From positions 36,078-100,077 of the IMG/VR virus record IMGVR_UViG_3300045988_062714: 64,000 nucleotides of DNA; one strand, 5' to 3'. The translations under genes were made by a program, and so were the position numbers. Shown here one piece after another: positions 37,456 to 64,000 of this stretch (positions are counted from its first letter, which is position 1; each line of letters starts with the position of its first letter). This DNA comes from a virus. The notes beneath the pieces were generated by a model. The model saw only the letters and a program-made list of their open reading frames with translations. It was not told the origin of the DNA and searched no databases.

Positions 37456-39627
37456 TTAATTTACTTCTTTAGAATATGTTCTTTTCTCAGCTTCTATTCT
37501 TCTATCTTTACCAAAAGCAGTGATAGGTCTTAGATAGCCAATAATTCTGGTATATTGAGTAATATGTTCACTCCCACATTTAGGACATACCTTAATGGGA
37601 GCTTTCACAATATGTTTACAATCCTCGCACTTACTATTAGGAATATTGAACGTGAAGTAATTAGTTCCTTGCTGAATAGCAAAGTCTATAAGCTTCAAGT
37701 ATTGCTCCTTAGATAGATGTTCCTCCAAGTTAATGTGGGCTGCACTACCTCCATCTGTATACTGATAAGTCTGCCTTCCATGAAGTATAAACTTATCTAA
37801 TACAGATGTGTCATCATGGGCATTATAGAAATAACTATTGTATAGATTCCTATCTTCAGGAACCCAATAGCCATCTGCTTTATCCCATTTATAATTCTTA
37901 CCACCAAGTCCCTCTGCTGGAACAACTTCAGAATTAAATAGGAAAGGTCTTTTCTTATCGTAGATGGAATGAATCTTATTCTGCTCCTTAATAGTTCCGA
38001 GGATTAGTTGCAAGAACTCGAAATACTCTGGATTATTAGATACTTTCAGTCCTAGGAACTCAGCAGCTTCATTCAGACCATTTAGCCCAATAGTACTATA
38101 TAGGTCTTTGATGTTTATATAACCTCCATTTGAAGAAGCAAACATCTTCTTATCCTCCCACTCATAGAGCATGGTCTTATAGGTAATGTGATACTTGTAT
38201 ACTCTCTCTAGAATATCTATTAGATATTTTTTGAGTAGGGCAACATTATCTTTACAATGCAAGAGATTTTTGTCTCCATCTTCACTCCACCAAGTAGTTT
38301 CTTGTCTAGCCCAATCTTGGACAATTCTGTTAATATTCAGAGTAATAACATTACAAGAACCTGTCTTTACACCAGTCATACCAGAGGTAGGACTAAATGT
38401 ATTTTCAGCTAATTCATTACGAAGACGACAACAAGATGCAAGACTATCTGCACTGTCTGAGATATAGGTAAAGAAACTATGACCTTGAGAATACATTTCT
38501 GCACATAAGTCTTTATAGTTCTTATCTATAATGTCTTTACCGTCATGCACCATAGCAAAGGTTTCTACTGGAAATGTCAGAACTTGTTTCAAGCGAAGTT
38601 TATTAAACCAAGACATGAACAATCTCTGTAAAGTATCAATTGCTACCCATTCTGGCTTAGTTCCGTCTGGATAGTAAAATTCTCCAAATAGAGATTCAAA
38701 ATAGGTCTTATCGTAGTACGAAACATTAGTAAAGGGAGATTGATAACTTCTGTTTCCAGCAGGTTGATTAATTCCCCAAACAAACTGTTTAAAAGCTTTA
38801 AGGATAGAGTCTTCGATAGTTCTCTTAATAAGAGAATGTTCCGAAGTACATATACAGTCGAGCTTCTCGTACCACTTTTCTCCGTATTCAGCAATAATAT
38901 AATAGTTAAGTGCAATAAAATAGCTACCTACAGCAACTGCTCCTTTACATTGAGAGGACAATAGAAATACTAAGTTAGTAACTTGTCCACTGAATGACTG
39001 CAAATCATTAGGAGGGCCAGGAGTAACTCCATCAATATTACCTACTCCCTCTAACATTAGGGGGTATAACGAGACTGCCATACAATACTGTTTAAGTACT
39101 GACGTAGAAGCCTCATCGTGGGTATAAATAATATGACTGTCTAGGTCTTTAGAATATTGAGAAGAGAGTTCGGGATAAAGAAGCTTTAATTTCTTCTTCA
39201 TACGATAGCGCTGAATTTCTCTGTTCTCGCGCTTTCTATCTTCACTCTCTAATGTAGCAACGTTCTTAGATACAACATTAGCATTTCCATCTGTTTCAGA
39301 TGAAGTAGCTGCATTTTCGGAACTATTAATATAGTTATCTTGATAACTAATCTTAGCTATGATTTCTCTAAGTCTAGATTGTTCACTTCTATACTGAGAA
39401 TATGCTGAGGCTACATCATCGTAACCATAGTCCCTCAAGGTTTCTATTACTACGTCCTGAATCTCTTCTATAGTAATGCCGTCCCATAAATGCATATCAG
39501 CCACCATAGCTGTAATGACTTCTTTATTTTCTTCAGGACAGCAAGCATTAAATGCTTTAGATATTGCTTCTACTATCTTATTACCGTCAAATTCCTGTAA
39601 ACTTCCGTCTCTCTTTACTACTTGCAT
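37456..39627 (-). CDS. nrdD: Anaerobic ribonucleoside-triphosphate reductase NrdD (class III).
   Basis: 723 aa. C-terminal zinc ribbon CEDCKH...CPKCG plus glycyl-radical motif TRIIGYLRP. Confidence 0.8.
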   Translation of the reverse strand: MQVVKRDGSLQEFDGNKIVEAISKAFNACCPEENKEVITAMVADMHLWDGITIEEIQDVVIETLRDYGYDDVASAYSQYRSEQSRLREIIAKISYQDNYINSSENAATSSETDGNANVVSKNVATLESEDRKRENREIQRYRMKKKLKLLYPELSSQYSKDLDSHIIYTHDEASTSVLKQYCMAVSLYPLMLEGVGNIDGVTPGPPNDLQSFSGQVTNLVFLLSSQCKGAVAVGSYFIALNYYIIAEYGEKWYEKLDCICTSEHSLIKRTIEDSILKAFKQFVWGINQPAGNRSYQSPFTNVSYYDKTYFESLFGEFYYPDGTKPEWVAIDTLQRLFMSWFNKLRLKQVLTFPVETFAMVHDGKDIIDKNYKDLCAEMYSQGHSFFTYISDSADSLASCCRLRNELAENTFSPTSGMTGVKTGSCNVITLNINRIVQDWARQETTWWSEDGDKNLLHCKDNVALLKKYLIDILERVYKYHITYKTMLYEWEDKKMFASSNGGYINIKDLYSTIGLNGLNEAAEFLGLKVSNNPEYFEFLQLILGTIKEQNKIHSIYDKKRPFLFNSEVVPAEGLGGKNYKWDKADGYWVPEDRNLYNSYFYNAHDDTSVLDKFILHGRQTYQYTDGGSAAHINLEEHLSKEQYLKLIDFAIQQGTNYFTFNIPNSKCEDCKHIVKAPIKVCPKCGSEHITQYTRIIGYLRPITAFGKDRRIEAEKRTYSKEVN

Positions 39628-60949: not shown

Positions 60950-61393
60950 TTATTCTTTCTTAGTTTCATATTCCTGACTTGCTTCAACTGCTAATTTATC
61001 TGCGAGATTATTCATCTGAGAAAAGAAGTCTGAACTTGAAGTATGTCCTTTCACCCAACAAAAATCTATATTAGGACAAAATTGCTTTGCCTTATTTAAG
61101 ACCTTGTCGTATAAATTCCATAACTCTACGTTCTTCTTTCTTTTCCATCCTTTAGTAGCACATCCTATGACGTACTGAGAATCTGAGTAAATAGTCAGAG
61201 ATTCGATTTTACGACTTACTGCATTTAGAGCATAAATTACTGCTAACAACTCACATTTGTTGTTAGTAGTATTTGGAATCATCTTGCTAAATTCATAGGA
61301 TTTTTTCCCATCAATTACGAATACAACTCCTACTCCTCCTGTATTTCTAGATGAACTAAAAGCTCCGTCAGTAAAGACCTCTAAATTACTCAT
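60950..61393 (-). CDS. rnhA: Ribonuclease H (RNase HI).
   Basis: Acidic catalytic residues in VFTDGA, ELLAV, YSDSQYV and ...NNLADKLA. Confidence 0.7.
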   Translation of the reverse strand: MSNLEVFTDGAFSSSRNTGGVGVVFVIDGKKSYEFSKMIPNTTNNKCELLAVIYALNAVSRKIESLTIYSDSQYVIGCATKGWKRKKNVELWNLYDKVLNKAKQFCPNIDFCWVKGHTSSSDFFSQMNNLADKLAVEASQEYETKKE

Positions 61394-62440
61394 TCTGAGT
61401 ATTAGTCCTGAGATTAGTTCCTAGTAGTATTGCTATCTTTAGCAGGTCGTCTTGGTTATCACAAAATATATTATCTAAAATATAGTTTGCGTAATCACTT
61501 ATTCTAACTCTCTTTCCTACAGCTCCATACTTCCCATTAAGCCACTTAATTTGTGGAATAAAGTCTTCCAAATTATCTCCAAGATGCCTCAAGGCTTTTC
61601 TAATAGAGACTGGAAACCACATTTTTTCTTTTATCCAATCTAAGTGACAATAACCAAACGCAAATGCTCTACTTAAATCCTTCTGAATAAACTCGTCTAA
61701 CTCGAAATTTCTCTCATGCCTACCAGCTTCCTCGAAATCATCTTTCAAATCCTCACAAAAAATCTGATTAAATTCAATCATAACTCCAAGTTTCTAGGCA
61801 AGCTATAAGTTCCAGCATCCCATATCTGCAATAACCTTGAATGGTCCAGTAGCTATAGAAAGATAAGGACTTTTGTTGTCATTGTACAGCTTCATTACTT
61901 CTCTTAGTAGTATACTAGCATTTCTGGATAGTTCGTAAAGAGTGGGAACTCTGTGTTCGTTCGGACCTACATACATTTTCCATGTACTTTTGCCTATACA
62001 GCGACCCTCGTCATCATATTCTCTATGACTCTTGTTCCACTGCATATACTCCAGAACCTTATCAAAATCAAAGTTCTCCATAATGCTTTTGTATTGTTCC
62101 TCCAATGGGGGACAATCATCCCTTGTCAGGACTGTTCTCTTTGTTTTGCTCATTTTTGTAACAATTAACAAGATTCTGTAAGTTGGACAACTTATCAGTT
62201 CTTACACTGACCAGTAGCCCACCCTTACGTAAGTTGTAACTAAGTTTAATTCCGCAATGATTTAGAATTTCGATAAACTCTCTCAATGCGCTTCCCTTTA
62301 ACACATTTCTGTAGACTAGTTTCTGACCATCTTGATATCCTGCTCGATAATATTCATTCGCAACATCAGAAATAAGCCATCGCTTAATAGGAGATACCCT
62401 ACTTAAGAGTTCATTGACTCTGGTTGCGATAAAATCCATA

Positions 62441-62614
62441 TTACTGAATACTATCAATTACAAGACTATCCACACCTAGAGTGTCTACACTCATTGTGTC
62501 AGCAACTTCTTTAACGATTGCGATAGAATCGTTTTCTGGAGCCTGAGTCTTTGTATTACCTGCACAAGCAGACATCAGTGCAACCATTCCGAAAAGCAAT
62601 AGTACTTTCTTCAT
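62441..62614 (-). CDS. Small lipoprotein of 57 aa.
   Basis: ATG at 62614. Sequence MKKVLLLFGMVALMSAC (signal peptide plus lipobox). Absent from the track because it is shorter than 60 aa. Confidence 0.35.
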   Translation of the reverse strand: MKKVLLLFGMVALMSACAGNTKTQAPENDSIAIVKEVADTMSVDTLGVDSLVIDSIQ

Positions 62615-62655
62615 TTTTCTTAATTTAAATTAGTTAATAATCATTTTATCTATCA

Positions 62656-62707
62656 AAAAAAAGAGTGGTTCCAGTATCTGTGCTTCACCAGATACTTTCC
62701 CCACTCC
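62656..62707 (-). terminator. Rho-independent terminator on the - strand.
   Basis: Bipartite stem GAGTGG..CCAGTATCTG/CAGATACT..CCACTC followed on the - strand by U8. Confidence 0.5.
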
Positions 62708-63088
62708 TATCACTCCGAAGAGCTTGTACCATTATTAGGTTGGTCAACCTCCCTCTTCATCTTGTTGAGAATTTGGGATAATAGTCACCAAGTTTAAAGA
62801 TTACTTGTAACTGAAGCAAAAGGCTAGAATCCCGAAGGGATTCCGTAACTCCTTCAACACGTGGTTGACGAGCTATGTAGGAAGCTAACGCGCAGGCAAA
62901 GATGAAGCCGTAGTCAAAGACCTAGCTACACTAACAAAGACTAAGACAAAGACTCTCAATTAGAGAGTAGGTTGTAAATTTTTGTGTAGCCAGCGAATAA
63001 AGATTAAATCCATGCGGATTTAAGAATATACTGTTCATAATTATTCCTGTTAAGTATGTTATGTTAGCTTCCTACGGAAGTCCTCTAA
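62708..63088 (-). ncRNA. Candidate structured non-coding RNA or unusually long structured 3' UTR.
   Basis: About 380 nt with no ORF. GC is well above the genome background. Contains multiple perfect hairpins (GAATCCC/GGGATTC, AAATCC/GGATTT, CCTCTAA/TTAGAGG) and ends at a terminator. Confidence 0.3.
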
Positions 63089-64000
63089 TTACTTAGAGGA
63101 AGAGTCGCCTTGTCTCCTAATCTCTTCGAAAATATCTAAAAGATTCTTAGGCAAAGCGATTTTTAGTTTGGAAATACGTTCCATTTCAGAAGTTTTCCAA
63201 CTATTGAAACAACTTCTCAACTCTCCTAATTCGGAGGTATATTTGTCGTATTTTGCTTTAAATTCAGCCATTTTCTCACGATACTCTTGTTCTTGAGTGT
63301 TAGAAAGTTTATTAACCTCCTCCTTAAGCTCAGCTTTAAGAGCATTTAACTCCTTCTCGTAAGAACGATAGGTGTCTTGAAGAGACATGAACATATTGTC
63401 CACTTTTTCTACTTCGATGGTAGGGTCTTGGTAGTAGAGAATTAAATCTCTTCCAGAGCCTTCCTTATAGATAGGACAATTCTCAGCTGCATGAACTTCT
63501 TTTCGTGCTTTACTAAAGGCTCCTTTTGGATGAATATACTTTCCATAGGTAGAAGCAAACGCCTCTAATCTTAGGAATTTATTTCTCTTGTTAATATCCC
63601 ACGACTTTATGATAGTCTCTTCAGTCGGAGAAGGTAGAGCTTCTGGATACTTAGGCTGCTCTGGCAGTCCTATTCCCTGACTTTCTGCCCAATCATCAAG
63701 CATAGTAGCAGATACTTTGCCAATCATTCCTTCTTTCTCTTTAATAGCTTCTCGTACCCAAGCACAAAAACTATTCATGGCAGCGACCTTTTCCAAATCA
63801 TCTTTTATAAAGTCAAGGGACTTTTGTCCTACTGTCATTAACTGCTTTTCTCCTCCACCGATAGAGGCTACAGATACTTGAAAGAATTTCACATTATTCA
63901 AGCGTTCCTGTGCTGCTTGAATCATTTCTTGTGCGATGTTCGCATAGAAGTTTGCTGACGTAGAAGTCAACCCTTCATTTCCAAAAAATACACTGTTCAT
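63089..64000 (-). CDS. Hypothetical coiled-coil protein, possibly truncated by the window edge.
   Basis: ORF runs to the last base of the window. Confidence 0.4.
   Translation of the reverse strand: MNSVFFGNEGLTSTSANFYANIAQEMIQAAQERLNNVKFFQVSVASIGGGEKQLMTVGQKSLDFIKDDLEKVAAMNSFCAWVREAIKEKEGMIGKVSATMLDDWAESQGIGLPEQPKYPEALPSPTEETIIKSWDINKRNKFLRLEAFASTYGKYIHPKGAFSKARKEVHAAENCPIYKEGSGRDLILYYQDPTIEVEKVDNMFMSLQDTYRSYEKELNALKAELKEEVNKLSNTQEQEYREKMAEFKAKYDKYTSELGELRSCFNSWKTSEMERISKLKIALPKNLLDIFEEIRRQGDSSSK

What the first reader, a model, noticed from the sequence alone, without database searches (positions are those of the whole stretch)
62615..63088. GC-rich, heavily structured 430-nt non-coding region ending in a strong terminator: candidate novel ncRNA
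There is no ORF on either strand. GC content is clearly higher than the flanking coding DNA. There are at least four perfect hairpins with short loops (GAATCCC-gaa-GGGATTC, AAATCC-atgc-GGATTT, CCTCTAA-ttac-TTAGAGG, CTTCC-tac-GGAAG). A bipartite terminator hairpin plus U8 sits on the - strand about 390 nt past the upstream stop codon. I could not match it to tmRNA, since it lacks a T-arm or CCA end, nor to RNase P or a tRNA. Large ornate ncRNAs such as GOLLD and ROOL are known in phages, so a new structured RNA is plausible. A riboregulator of the downstream lipoprotein gene or a long structured 3' UTR are alternatives.
Basis: seen in the sequence. Interest (0 to 1): 0.65.

Follow-up and report, generated by a model that had tools for sequence, protein, structure and literature searches.

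The report
Two-module structured RNA in gut phages
The gap between two genes of this roughly 190-kb human-gut phage encodes a roughly 445-nt, highly folded non-coding RNA made of two separable modules; it is conserved with compensatory base-pair changes across many related phages, matches no catalogued RNA family, and its function is unknown.

Summary
Window 62652-63099, minus strand, is non-coding and folds better than shuffles (z -4.75). It ends in a two-tier hairpin followed by U8. "GC-rich" is overstated: 37.3% against 35.1% for the window.

The element is conserved in more than 60 phage contigs. Base pairing is kept by compensatory changes:
- 5' helices P1 and P2: 12 of 23 pairs changed on both sides.
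- 3' core: 20 of 44 pairs, against 7.1±1.7 in shuffles.

Rfam 15, ARAGORN and a scan of 185,579 bacterial and archaeal genomes give no known family and no host copy.

It consists of two modules:
- The 5' module (62877-63075) always follows the same 303-aa gene, even at 28-38% protein identity. A hairpin overlaps that gene's stop codon. The module carries an array of UCUU(U/A)G motifs.
- The 3' core (62652-62819) has a 44-nt stretch that is nearly invariant among the members retrieved. The core occurs alone elsewhere and always lies upstream of an RNase H gene.

One clade carries a tRNA-like insert in the linker.

The layout resembles GOLLD: phage-borne, next to a tRNA island, with a conserved 3' part and a variable 5' part. 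There is no detectable homology to GOLLD. I conclude it is a new structured RNA family of unknown function.

The parts
62652..63099 (-). Whole structured RNA element, from the stop-codon hairpin to the terminator U-tract (about 448 nt)
   Evidence: Sequence. Fold z = -4.75. Conserved in relatives. Coordinates.
63082..63099 (-). P0: hairpin CCUCUAA-GUAA-UUAGAGG with the UAA stop codon of the 303-aa ORF in its loop
   Evidence: the pair at columns 27/42 is C-G in 8 sequences and U-A in 3. Hairpins of different sequence cover the stop codon in L102, L116, L169 and L220 (read by eye).
62877..63075 (-). 5' module, a domain closed by helix P1
   Evidence: Model R2 scores 213.5 bits here and has no other real hit in the window. 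The module is found after the homologous gene in L169, L217-L223 and, weakly, L215 and L216.
63063..63075 (-). P1 5' strand, GUAGGAAGCUAAC
   Evidence: 13 bp, 100% paired in 12 sequences, with 6 pairs changed on both sides. Entirely different P1 sequences occur in L169, L220, L215 and L216.
62877..62889 (-). P1 3' strand, GUUAGCUUCCUAC
63006..63021 (-). Pa: hairpin AAAUCC-GCAU-GGAUUU, variable in sequence between clades
   Evidence: Replaced by GAAAUC-ACUG-GAUUUC, GAAAUC-UAAG-GAUUUC or CAGAU-UUAUA-AUCUG in other clades. Absent in L220.
62984..62993 (-). P2 5' strand, CUGGCUACAC
   Evidence: 10 bp, 97.5% paired, with 6 pairs changed on both sides.
62922..62931 (-). P2 3' strand, GUGUAGCUAG
62952..62968 (-). 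P2a: hairpin ACUCUC-UAAUU-GAGAGU inside P2
   Evidence: helix 3: 3 pairs changed on both sides and 84.7% paired. This position is variable, and other clades carry different hairpins there.
62895..62953 (-). Array of five (G/A)UCUU(U/A)G motifs, three in the 3' side of the P2 internal loop and two after P2
   Evidence: Density is 10.5 per kb here against 0.31 per kb on the rest of the minus strand, and this is the only cluster in the window. The array is kept in L102, L116, L169, L220 and, as CCUU-type motifs, in L215 and L216. Copy number varies between strains.
62846..62875 (-). P3: linker hairpin UAGCUC-GUCAAC-CACGU-GUUGAA-GGAGUUA
   Evidence: the pair at columns 284/299 is U-A in 5 sequences and C-G in 5. 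Absent in L102, L116, L169, L217, L218 and L220.
62827..62844 (-). P4: linker hairpin GGAAUCCC-UUC-GGGAUUC
   Evidence: pairs at columns 310/381, 313/378 and 316/375 changed on both sides. Replaced by a roughly 280-nt tRNA-like insert in L036 and L223.
62652..62819 (-). 3' core module (P5 to P9 plus U-tract)
   Evidence: Model R1 scores 209.4 bits and this is the only hit in the window. 22 distinct homologues: 96.2% paired, 20 of 44 pairs changed on both sides against 7.1±1.7 in shuffles. The core stands alone in L120.
62783..62812 (-). P5: hairpin AGUUACAAGU-AAUCUUUAA-ACUUGGUGACU
   Evidence: helix 1: 97.7% paired and 2 pairs changed on both sides (L217, L116).
62750..62778 (-). P6: UCCC...GGGA outer helix and UUCUC-AACAA-GA(U)GAA inner helix. 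Contains the invariant AAGAUGAA, with GGAGG at its 3' edge
   Evidence: in the outer helix 3 of 4 pairs changed on both sides (L169, L220). The inner helix is invariant in all 22 sequences, so its pairing is untested.
62745..62788 (-). Near-invariant 44-nt stretch GUGACUAUUAUCCCAAAUUCUCAACAAGAUGAAGAGGGAGGUUG
   Evidence: Part of this invariance is ascertainment, because the search patterns used required parts of it. L169, L217-L223 were found through protein neighbours and still keep most of it.
62724..62747 (-). P7: hairpin UUGACCA-ACCUAAUAA-UGG(U)ACAA with a conserved 9-nt loop
   Evidence: helix 4: the pair at 82/94 occurs as C-G, A-U, U-A and G-C; the pair at 83/93 occurs as A-U, U-A and G-C.
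62712..62723 (-). P8: hairpin GCUC-UUCG-GAGU
   Evidence: helix 5: 3 of 4 pairs changed on both sides. Absent in L169.
62655..62707 (-). P9: two-tier terminator. Outer helix GGAGUGG/CCACUCU, purine-rich internal loops, inner helix GUAUCUG/CAGAUAC, loop with conserved GAAGCA, then U8 at 62655-62662
   Evidence: helices 6 and 7: 4 and 6 pairs changed on both sides. The U-tract is present in all members.
63089..64000 (-). Upstream 303-aa ORF of unknown function, which the 5' module always follows
   Evidence: 469 homologues. AF2 model with pLDDT 89, helical with an 81-residue helix, and no informative fold match.
60950..61393 (-). RNase H gene. It is the first conserved gene downstream of the 3' core in every core-bearing locus, with 0-4 small ORFs between
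   Evidence: phrog_531, E = 8e-38..

Best explanation
This is a new family of phage-encoded structured non-coding RNA, read from the minus strand.

What is shown:
- It is non-coding.
- Its base pairing is kept by compensatory substitutions.
- It consists of two independently occurring modules joined by a variable linker.
- It ends in a hairpin followed by a U-tract.

What is inferred about the transcript:
- The RNA is made as the long trailing part (3' UTR) of the mRNA of the 303-aa gene, because a conserved hairpin covers that gene's stop codon and no promoter is seen in between.
- Transcription stops at the two-tier intrinsic terminator.
- The 3' core is an autonomous small-RNA unit of about 165 nt. 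In one lineage (L120) it stands alone behind a Bacteroidota-type -7 box (TAnnTTTG).

What is inferred about how it works, with low confidence:
- The 5' module is a scaffold that displays a tandem array of single-stranded UCUU(U/A)G motifs. This looks like a multi-site protein-binding or sponge platform. The likeliest client is the coiled-coil product of the gene it is always attached to, or a host RNA-binding protein.
- The near-invariant junctions and loops of the 3' core contact a highly conserved partner. One lead is the invariant GGAGG, which is complementary to the anti-Shine-Dalgarno tail of 16S rRNA, in a phage whose own genes lack Shine-Dalgarno sequences.

In genomic logic it behaves like GOLLD and ROOL. 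It is a stable ornate phage RNA at the edge of a tRNA island, with a conserved 3' part, a variable 5' part and sometimes a tRNA-like element in the linker.
For: Non-coding: stops in all frames and indels that are not multiples of three.

Conservation exceeds that of the neighbouring gene:
- The region is 80-83% identical in DNA where the flanking protein is 74-78% identical.
- A 164-nt core stretch is 92% identical where the flanking protein is 59% identical.
- The core is still found at 72 bits, and the 5' module at 72.5 bits, where the flanking protein is 38% identical.

Covariation:
- P1 is 100% paired with 6 of 13 pairs changed on both sides. P2 has 6 of 10.
- The core has 20 of 44 pairs changed on both sides, against 7.1±1.7 in shuffles and 3-7 in slid controls. 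An independent MAFFT alignment gives 12 against 2.7±1.2.

Strand:
- Invariant or frequent G-U pairs at 11/37, 80/96, 101/115 and 121/172 would be A-C mismatches on the other strand.
- R2 scores 159 bits forward against 21 bits on the reverse strand.
- The U-tract is on the minus strand.

Modularity:
- L120 has the core only.
- L215 and L216 have the 5' module only, and R1 with filters off finds nothing there.
- The linker is absent, two hairpins, or a 280-nt tRNA-like insert.

Attachment to the upstream gene: the 5' module starts 8-25 nt after the stop codon in every lineage, and a hairpin overlaps the stop codon.

Repeat array: about 33-fold local enrichment, unique in the window, and kept across lineages.

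Not a known family, and no host copy.

GOLLD parallels: stated in PMC12286853. tRNA genes lie upstream in the relatives.

GGAGG against the anti-SD tail: -17.5 kcal/mol, z = -3.4. Only 7 of 53 window genes have an SD-like motif.
Against: - There are no expression data, so no 5' or 3' end is mapped and a discrete stable RNA is not demonstrated.
- The P6 inner helix never varies, and most of P5 does not, so their pairing is unproven.
- Part of the invariance is ascertainment, because several members were found with patterns taken from the core.
- Alignment A6 was fitted to the model and therefore leans towards its structure.
- The sequences come from one phage lineage and are related, so the shuffle controls overstate significance.
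- The protein-binding role of the repeats and the anti-SD idea rest on sequence inspection only. The 303-aa protein has no recognisable RNA-binding fold.
- In every locus the terminator is followed within 20-45 nt by the next ORF, with no obvious promoter. This also fits a cis-regulatory reading.
- The L215 and L216 matches to the 5' module are weak: 19-27 bits, with only rough E-values of 0.003-0.07.
Confidence: 0.72

Rival explanations
1. A cis-acting transcription attenuator or read-through control element. The folded RNA and its terminator would gate expression of the downstream genes (small ORFs and RNase H), in the manner of a riboswitch or a protein- or RNA-responsive leader.
For: In all loci the terminator U-tract lies only 20-45 nt before the next start codon on the same strand. 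That is too short for a separate Bacteroidota promoter. RNase H is the constant downstream gene, directly adjacent in L116, L120, L217 and L222.
Against: - The immediately downstream gene varies: lipoprotein, 113-aa ORF, 131-aa ORF or RNase H.
- RNase H homologues occur without the RNA in L170 and L171.
- The terminator hairpin itself has a conserved loop (GAAGCA) and conserved purine-rich internal loops with covarying stems. This points to a functional part of a folded RNA rather than a simple switchable platform.
- I saw no conserved alternative (anti-terminator) pairing, though I did not search for one exhaustively.
- At about 445 nt it is far larger than known riboswitches.
Confidence: 0.15
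2. A DNA-level element, such as a replication origin or protein-binding site with short iterons (GTCTTT/GTCTTA) and hairpins, sitting in the replication module next to RNase H. One version is an R-loop or primer-RNA origin of the ColE1 or T4 kind.
For: Tandem 6-7-nt repeats are unique in the window. The window is a replication and nucleotide-metabolism module with DNA polymerase, primase, helicases, ligase and RNase H. RNase H is the constant downstream neighbour.
Against: - Compensatory changes that use G-U pairs on one strand only indicate selection on a single-stranded RNA of the minus strand, not on duplex DNA.
- A strong intrinsic terminator would release the transcript, whereas a primer RNA must stay hybridised.
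- There is no inflection of cumulative GC skew at the site.
- The two modules occur separately in other phages.
Confidence: 0.04
3. A divergent member of an already known RNA family (GOLLD, ROOL, tmRNA, RNase P RNA or a group I intron) that the models fail to detect.
For: Context and layout resemble GOLLD: phage-borne, next to a tRNA island, conserved 3' part, variable 5' part, tRNA-like element in the linker.
Against: - No match to any of 4227 Rfam 15 models, even at E<=10 with permissive filters, on four different members.
- ARAGORN finds no tmRNA.
- The size is about half that of GOLLD.
- The flanking ORFs are complete, separate genes, so it is not an intron.
- There is no tRNA-like acceptor and T-arm pairing of the RNA ends.
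Confidence: 0.04
4. A decayed or recoded protein-coding region, that is a pseudogene or a gene read with a reassigned stop codon.
For: Minus-strand frame 2 is open for about 93 codons if TAG is read through. Stop-codon recoding is known in gut phages (my own knowledge).
Against: - That frame also needs TGA read-through.
- Relatives differ by 1-, 2-, 4- and 6-nt indels scattered through it.
- Substitutions are concentrated in paired positions as compensatory doubles.
- The rest of the window is densely coding under the standard code.
- A putative 16-codon ORF in the core loses its start codon in L033 and is truncated in L102.
Confidence: 0.01

Closest known systems
GOLLD RNA (Rfam RF01998)
   Same: - Encoded by phages and prophages.
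- Located at or near tRNA islands.
[quoted passage not shown]
- tRNAs are sometimes present in the linker. These properties of GOLLD are taken from PMC12286853.

Here tRNA genes lie upstream. The 3' core is near-invariant and the 5' module varies. A tRNA-like insert sits in the linker of L036 and L223.
   Different: - No sequence or structure match to the Rfam model at E<=10.
- About 445 nt against more than 800 nt.
- The two halves occur as free-standing modules in other phages.
- The 5' half is tied to one protein gene and carries a short-motif repeat array.
- Multimer or cage formation is untested.
ROOL RNA (Rfam RF03087)
   Same: A large, ornate phage or prophage RNA of unknown function, often near tRNA islands (PMC12286853).
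   Different: No model match. This RNA has a different size and architecture. No pseudoknots are established here.
3'-UTR-derived or 3'-UTR-embedded bacterial small RNAs ending at the mRNA's intrinsic terminator
   Same: The structure starts at the stop codon of a protein gene and shares that gene's terminator. The terminal module can also have its own promoter (the -7-like box in L120). This comparison class is from my own knowledge.
   Different: It is much larger and more ornate than typical 3'-UTR small RNAs. Its very highly conserved stretch (44 nt or more) is far longer than a seed region. It sits in a phage, with no identified target.
Protein-sponge RNAs with repeated short motifs (CsrB/RsmZ type)
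   Same: Several copies of a short motif, (G/A)UCUU(U/A)G, are displayed in loops or single-stranded stretches of a structured scaffold. Copy number varies between strains.
   Different: The motif is different: there are no GGA motifs presented in hairpin loops. No CsrA-type partner is known in Bacteroidota. Binding is not tested. This is a resemblance from memory, a lead and not a test.
Phage T4 stable RNAs C and D (rnaC, rnaD) in the T4 tRNA gene cluster
   Same: Phage-encoded stable RNAs of unknown function associated with the phage tRNA region (my own knowledge).
   Different: No sequence relation was tested or is expected. The T4 RNAs are smaller (roughly 120-140 nt) and are processed together with the tRNAs.

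Membership tests
GOLLD (RF01998) | Match to the family covariance model at or near its gathering score | tested here: not met
   cmscan at gathering score on the whole window gave 0 hits. Scans at E<=10 on the window region, L036, L120 and L116 gave no GOLLD hit.
GOLLD (RF01998) | Phage-borne, near a tRNA island, with a conserved 3' half and a variable 5' half | tested here: met
   tRNA-Leu lies 30-1000 nt upstream and up to 11 tRNAs lie further upstream. The core is near-invariant and the 5' module varies. This is context only and is not sufficient for membership.
ROOL (RF03087) | Match to the family covariance model | tested here: not met
tmRNA | tRNA-like domain formed by the 5' and 3' ends, plus a tag reading frame | tested here: not met
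   ARAGORN found 0 genes in the window. There is no Rfam tmRNA hit. The RNA's 3' end is a terminator hairpin, not an acceptor and T-arm.
RNase P RNA, SRP RNA, 6S RNA, Y RNA | Match to the family covariance models | tested here: not met
Group I or group II intron | Model match, and interruption of a single reading frame whose exons join | tested here: not met
   No Rfam hit. The upstream ORF is complete, with a conserved C-terminus. The downstream gene differs between relatives.
tRNA (linker insert of L036 and L223 only) | Cloverleaf recognised by ARAGORN or by the Rfam tRNA model at 29 bits or more | tested here: not met
   ARAGORN does not call it. The Rfam tRNA model gives 18.8 bits, E = 0.6. 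The insert has a 7-bp acceptor-like stem, a T-arm (GUAGG-UUUGAAU-CCUAU) and a hairpin with a CUUUUAA loop. These arms covary between L036 and L223. It is therefore tRNA-like, not a tRNA.
Intrinsic (Rho-independent) terminator | Stable GC-containing hairpin immediately followed by a U-tract on the transcribed strand | tested here: met
   GGAGUGG...CCACUCU followed by U8 at 62655-62707. It is kept in all core-bearing members. The simple scanner missed it because the hairpin is two-tiered. Termination activity cannot be tested here.
Riboswitch or cis-regulatory leader | Constant association with the 5' end of one gene or one functional class of genes | tested here: inconclusive
   The immediately downstream gene varies. 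However, RNase H is always the first conserved gene downstream of the core.
Diversity-generating retroelement template or other repeat partner | A second, near-identical copy elsewhere in the genome | tested here: not met
   No repeat family involves this region in the 64-kb window. R1 and R2 each have a single real hit in the window.

The most novel reading that the evidence does not exclude
The element may be the RNA part of a previously unknown phage ribonucleoprotein or RNA-only assembly, functionally analogous to GOLLD and ROOL.

In this reading the 5' module, with its UCUUWG array, would be the cognate RNA of the coiled-coil 303-aa protein it always follows. The near-invariant 3' core would dock onto a conserved host machine, for example the small ribosomal subunit through its GGAGG and anti-Shine-Dalgarno complementarity, in a host that normally hides its anti-SD. 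The phage would thereby re-programme translation or RNA metabolism.

Probability: 0.2. Interest if true: 0.8.

Novelty: new variant of a known kind. Interest (0 to 1): 0.6.

Why it matters
Large ornate phage RNAs such as GOLLD and ROOL are abundant and structurally spectacular, but their function is still unexplained. This element has the same genomic logic in a different and smaller fold. It sits in a widespread lineage of roughly 190-kb human-gut phages: the 100%-identical protein cluster alone has 562 member sequences, and there are 469 homologues.

It comes with several handles:
- Two modules that nature has already separated.
- A protein gene that always accompanies one module.
- An RNase H gene that always follows the other module.
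- A repeat array whose copy number changes between strains.
- A clade with a tRNA-like insert.

Each of these suggests a direct experiment. If the RNA proves to be only a long structured 3' UTR with a terminator, it is still a well-supported new RNA family suitable for Rfam.

Tried and rejected
- Rfam scans at gathering score on the whole window, and at E<=10 on four members, gave only noise hits to snoRNA and miRNA models.
- ARAGORN found no tRNA or tmRNA in the window.
- A repeat search for a second copy or a DGR-type partner found none.
- The coding and recoding hypothesis is rejected by the stop codons and the indel pattern. A 16-codon ORF in the core is not conserved.
- The 'phages' GenBank collection holds only one unannotated 25-kb fragment of the same phage.
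- Three relaxed core patterns run against IMG/VR returned the same 43 contigs.
- In the metagenome scan, the hits with a 56-nt span were mreB coding coincidences.
- The bacterial-genome scan found only mis-binned phage contigs, so there is no host homologue.
- A candidate loop-A to AAGAU pseudoknot is rejected, because L116 and L033 break it without compensation (by eye).
- GAAGAG/CUCUUC pairing is rejected in favour of the covarying P8 hairpin.
- The bipartite Bacteroides promoter motif is not enriched in the window: 1 found against 2.6 expected. I could not define a promoter for the full-length RNA.
- Complementarity of the core to the 11 phage tRNAs is not better than for shuffles, with z from -2.0 to +1.8.
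- Function of the neighbouring 303-aa protein: Pfam and PHROGs gave only coiled-coil noise. The AF2 model is confident, but Foldseek found nothing informative.
- The supplements of the two large csRNA surveys either do not contain the core sequence (PMC8040213, first 200 of 408 files) or are not held (PMC10690425). Prior listing as an unnamed candidate therefore cannot be excluded.
Full report
**1. What is there**

The interval lies between two minus-strand ORFs. One is a complete 303-aa ORF at 63089-64000. The other is a 57-aa lipoprotein ORF at 62441-62614.

Nearly all genes of the window run on the minus strand. They form a replication and nucleotide-metabolism module with DNA polymerase, primase, helicases, ligases, NrdD, NAMPT and RNase H.

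The interval is not coding:
- It holds only two ORFs, of 35 and 38 aa.
- All six frames are interrupted by TAA, TAG and TGA.
- Relatives differ by 1-, 2-, 4- and 6-nt indels.

The minus-strand transcript folds at -133.6 kcal/mol, against -106.4±5.7 for shuffles (z = -4.75). The plus strand is similar, so folding energy does not choose the strand.

GC is only 37.3%, against 35.1% for the window, with a local peak of 42-45%. "GC-rich" is overstated.

**2. No known family**

- Rfam 15 gives nothing at gathering score over the whole window.
- It gives nothing meaningful at E<=10 on the region or on three divergent homologues.
- ARAGORN finds no tRNA or tmRNA.
- No second copy exists in the window.

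**3. Relatives**

- The flanking protein retrieves 41 IMG/VR loci on contigs of about 185-192 kb.
- The only GenBank phage record is an unannotated fragment of the same phage.
- The non-coding region is 80-83% identical in DNA where the flanking protein is 74-78% identical.
- A 164-nt stretch is 92% identical where the protein is 59% identical.
- A metagenome pattern scan added divergent members L102, L116, L120 and L142.
- Protein-guided retrieval added L169 and L217-L223.
- A scan of one genome from each of 185,579 prokaryotic species found only two records. Both are this phage mis-binned into MAGs.

The RNA is therefore phage-specific as far as this pattern can see.

**4. Structure and covariation**

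5' module (window 62877-63075):
- It is closed by a 13-bp long-range helix, P1. P1 is 100% paired in 12 sequences, with 6 pairs changed on both sides.
- Inside it, helix P2 (10 bp) has 6 pairs changed on both sides.
- Over the three counted 5' helices (P1, P2 and P2a) 15 pairs changed on both sides, against 6.3±1.5 in shuffles and 3-6 in slid controls.
- Lineages L169, L220, L215 and L216 have P1 and P2 of entirely different sequence in the same places.

3' core (62652-62819):
- It has five hairpins, P5 to P9.
- In 22 distinct sequences, 96.2% of cells are paired and 20 of 44 pairs changed on both sides. Shuffles give 7.1±1.7 and slid controls give 3-7.
- That alignment was fitted to the model. 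An independent MAFFT alignment of 14 sequences gives 12 against 2.7±1.2.
- The inner helix of P6 (UUCUC/GA-UGAA) never varies, so its pairing is untested.

Strand:
- Frequent G-U pairs occur on this strand only.
- Model scores are asymmetric between the strands.
- The U-tract is on the minus strand.

These three points fix the RNA to the minus strand.

Covariation favours P1.

**5. Two modules**

- L120 has only the core. It lies behind a TATATTTG box, which matches the Bacteroidota -7 consensus TAnnTTTG (consensus from my own knowledge). A different upstream gene precedes it and RNase H follows it directly.
- L215 and L216 carry homologues of the 303-aa gene at 28-31% identity. They have only the 5' module. 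R2 scores 19 and 26.7 bits there, exactly in the intergenic region after that gene. P1 and P2 covary between the two loci. P1 is followed by a U-run. R1 with filters off finds no core.
- The linker between the modules takes three forms. It is two covarying hairpins (P3 and P4) in the window clade. It is 9-29 nt in L217, L218, L220 and L222, and L102, L116 and L169 likewise lack P3 and P4. It is a roughly 280-nt insert in L036 and L223.
- That insert has a 7-bp acceptor-like stem, a T-arm and a hairpin with a CUUUUAA loop. The arms covary between L036 and L223. ARAGORN does not call it, and the Rfam tRNA model gives 18.8 bits. It is tRNA-like, not a tRNA.

**6. Fixed neighbours**

- The 5' module begins 8-25 nt after the stop codon of the 303-aa gene in every lineage.
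- A hairpin (P0) covers the stop codon. It shows a compensatory change even though one of its arms is coding. This argues that the RNA is physically continuous with that mRNA.
- The core is always upstream of RNase H, with 0-4 small ORFs between.
- RNase H homologues without the RNA also exist.
- The immediately downstream gene varies, so the element is not a leader of the lipoprotein gene.

**7. The repeat array**

- Five (G/A)UCUU(U/A)G motifs lie within 59 nt, at 62895-62953.
- Their density is 10.5 per kb, against 0.31 per kb elsewhere on that strand. It is the only such cluster in the window.
- The array is kept in all lineages. GC-rich relatives carry CCUU-type variants.
- Copy number changes between near-identical strains by 6- and 12-nt deletions.

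This looks like a multi-site binding platform. That is an inference.

**8. The neighbouring protein**

- It has 469 homologues and no annotation.
- Pfam and PHROGs give only coiled-coil noise.
- The AlphaFold2 model has pLDDT 89. It is helical and includes an 81-residue helix.
- Foldseek finds nothing in the PDB (best E = 0.056) and only one uncharacterised phage protein in BFVD.

There is no evidence for or against RNA binding.

**9. Leads on function**

- The window's genes lack Shine-Dalgarno motifs (7 of 53). This fits a Bacteroidota host.
- The core carries an invariant GGAGG that is complementary to the anti-SD tail: -17.5 kcal/mol, z = -3.4.
- Complementarity to the phage tRNAs is not above chance.

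These are leads, not findings.

**10. Comparison with known RNAs**

According to PMC12286853, GOLLD and ROOL are phage or prophage RNAs near tRNA islands. [quoted passage not shown]

The present RNA shares all of these organisational traits. It fails the model-match test for GOLLD and is about half its size.

It is best described as a new family of the same general kind, with two features of its own: two naturally separable modules, and a 5' half bound to one protein gene.

Large surveys have predicted thousands of unnamed candidate structured RNAs in IMG/VR and in human microbiomes (PMC10690425, PMC8040213). I could not find this sequence in the supplements that are held. Prior listing as an unnamed candidate cannot be excluded.

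**11. Verdict**

- Well supported (about 0.9): a conserved structured RNA read from the minus strand.
- Likely (about 0.7): it is made as the trailing part of the upstream mRNA, ends at the two-tier terminator, and consists of two functional modules.
- Speculative: a protein-sponge or RNP role for the 5' module, and a conserved-machine-binding role for the core.
- Rivals: a cis-acting attenuator of the RNase H operon (about 0.15), a DNA-level origin (about 0.04), a hidden known family (about 0.04), and coding sequence (about 0.01).

Noticed in passing
window 62895-62953 (-); L007, L013, L026, L041, L089, L106: The number of GUCUUUG/GUCUUAG repeats differs between otherwise near-identical phage strains, through 6-nt, 12-nt and larger deletions. 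L106 even loses part of the P2 3' strand. This suggests slippage or recombination between the repeats.
   Followed up: partly
L036 5165-5450; L223 3660-3940: A roughly 280-nt insert replaces hairpin P4. It sits on a stem of about 25 bp and contains a tRNA-like unit: an acceptor-like stem, a T-arm GGUUUGAAUCC, and a hairpin whose 7-nt loop CUUUUAA is that of a tRNA-Lys(UUU) anticodon loop. The arms covary between the two loci. ARAGORN does not call it.
   Followed up: partly
L001 3019-3549 (just beyond the window's upper end): The window's clade has an HNH endonuclease ORF (Pfam HNH, E = 4e-6) at the position where relatives carry tRNA-Leu(UAA) immediately upstream of the 303-aa gene. The tRNA is missing in L001.
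   Followed up: no
L164 (DXLM01000001.1, 186,052 bp, labelled Bacteroides sp. MAG); L167 (CALEBD010000016.1, labelled uncultured Clostridium sp.): Two records in the bacterial genome collection are contigs of this phage that were binned into bacterial MAGs. The conflicting host labels should not be read as host evidence.
   Followed up: partly
L087, L088, L091 and about 25 other metagenome loci: The gapped core pattern also hits a conserved stretch of mreB genes in sediment bacteria, always with a 56-nt span. This is a coding coincidence and is unrelated to the RNA.
   Followed up: yes
window 37456-39627 (-): The anaerobic ribonucleotide reductase (NrdD) is about 70% identical to NrdD of the crAss-like phages cr85_1, cr111_1 and IAS virus. 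This genome is about twice their size, which suggests gene exchange among gut Bacteroidota phages.
   Followed up: no
window-wide, minus-strand gene starts: Only 7 of 53 genes have a GGAG/GAGG/AGGA motif within 20 nt upstream of the start codon, and the upstream regions are A/T-rich. GGAGG is nevertheless 69:16 enriched on the coding strand, which is presumably a codon-usage effect.
   Followed up: partly
window 61803-62614 (-): The small lipoprotein ORF and the next two ORFs (113 aa and 122 aa, which overlap each other by about 55 nt) are variably present between the RNA and RNase H in relatives. This is a hot spot for gain and loss of small genes.
   Followed up: partly
window 62952-62968 (-): The simple terminator scan flags hairpin P2a plus the U-rich repeat array as terminator-like. 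The covarying P2 and P1 3' strands lie downstream of it, so full termination there is unlikely. Partial termination would give a short 5' product.
   Followed up: no
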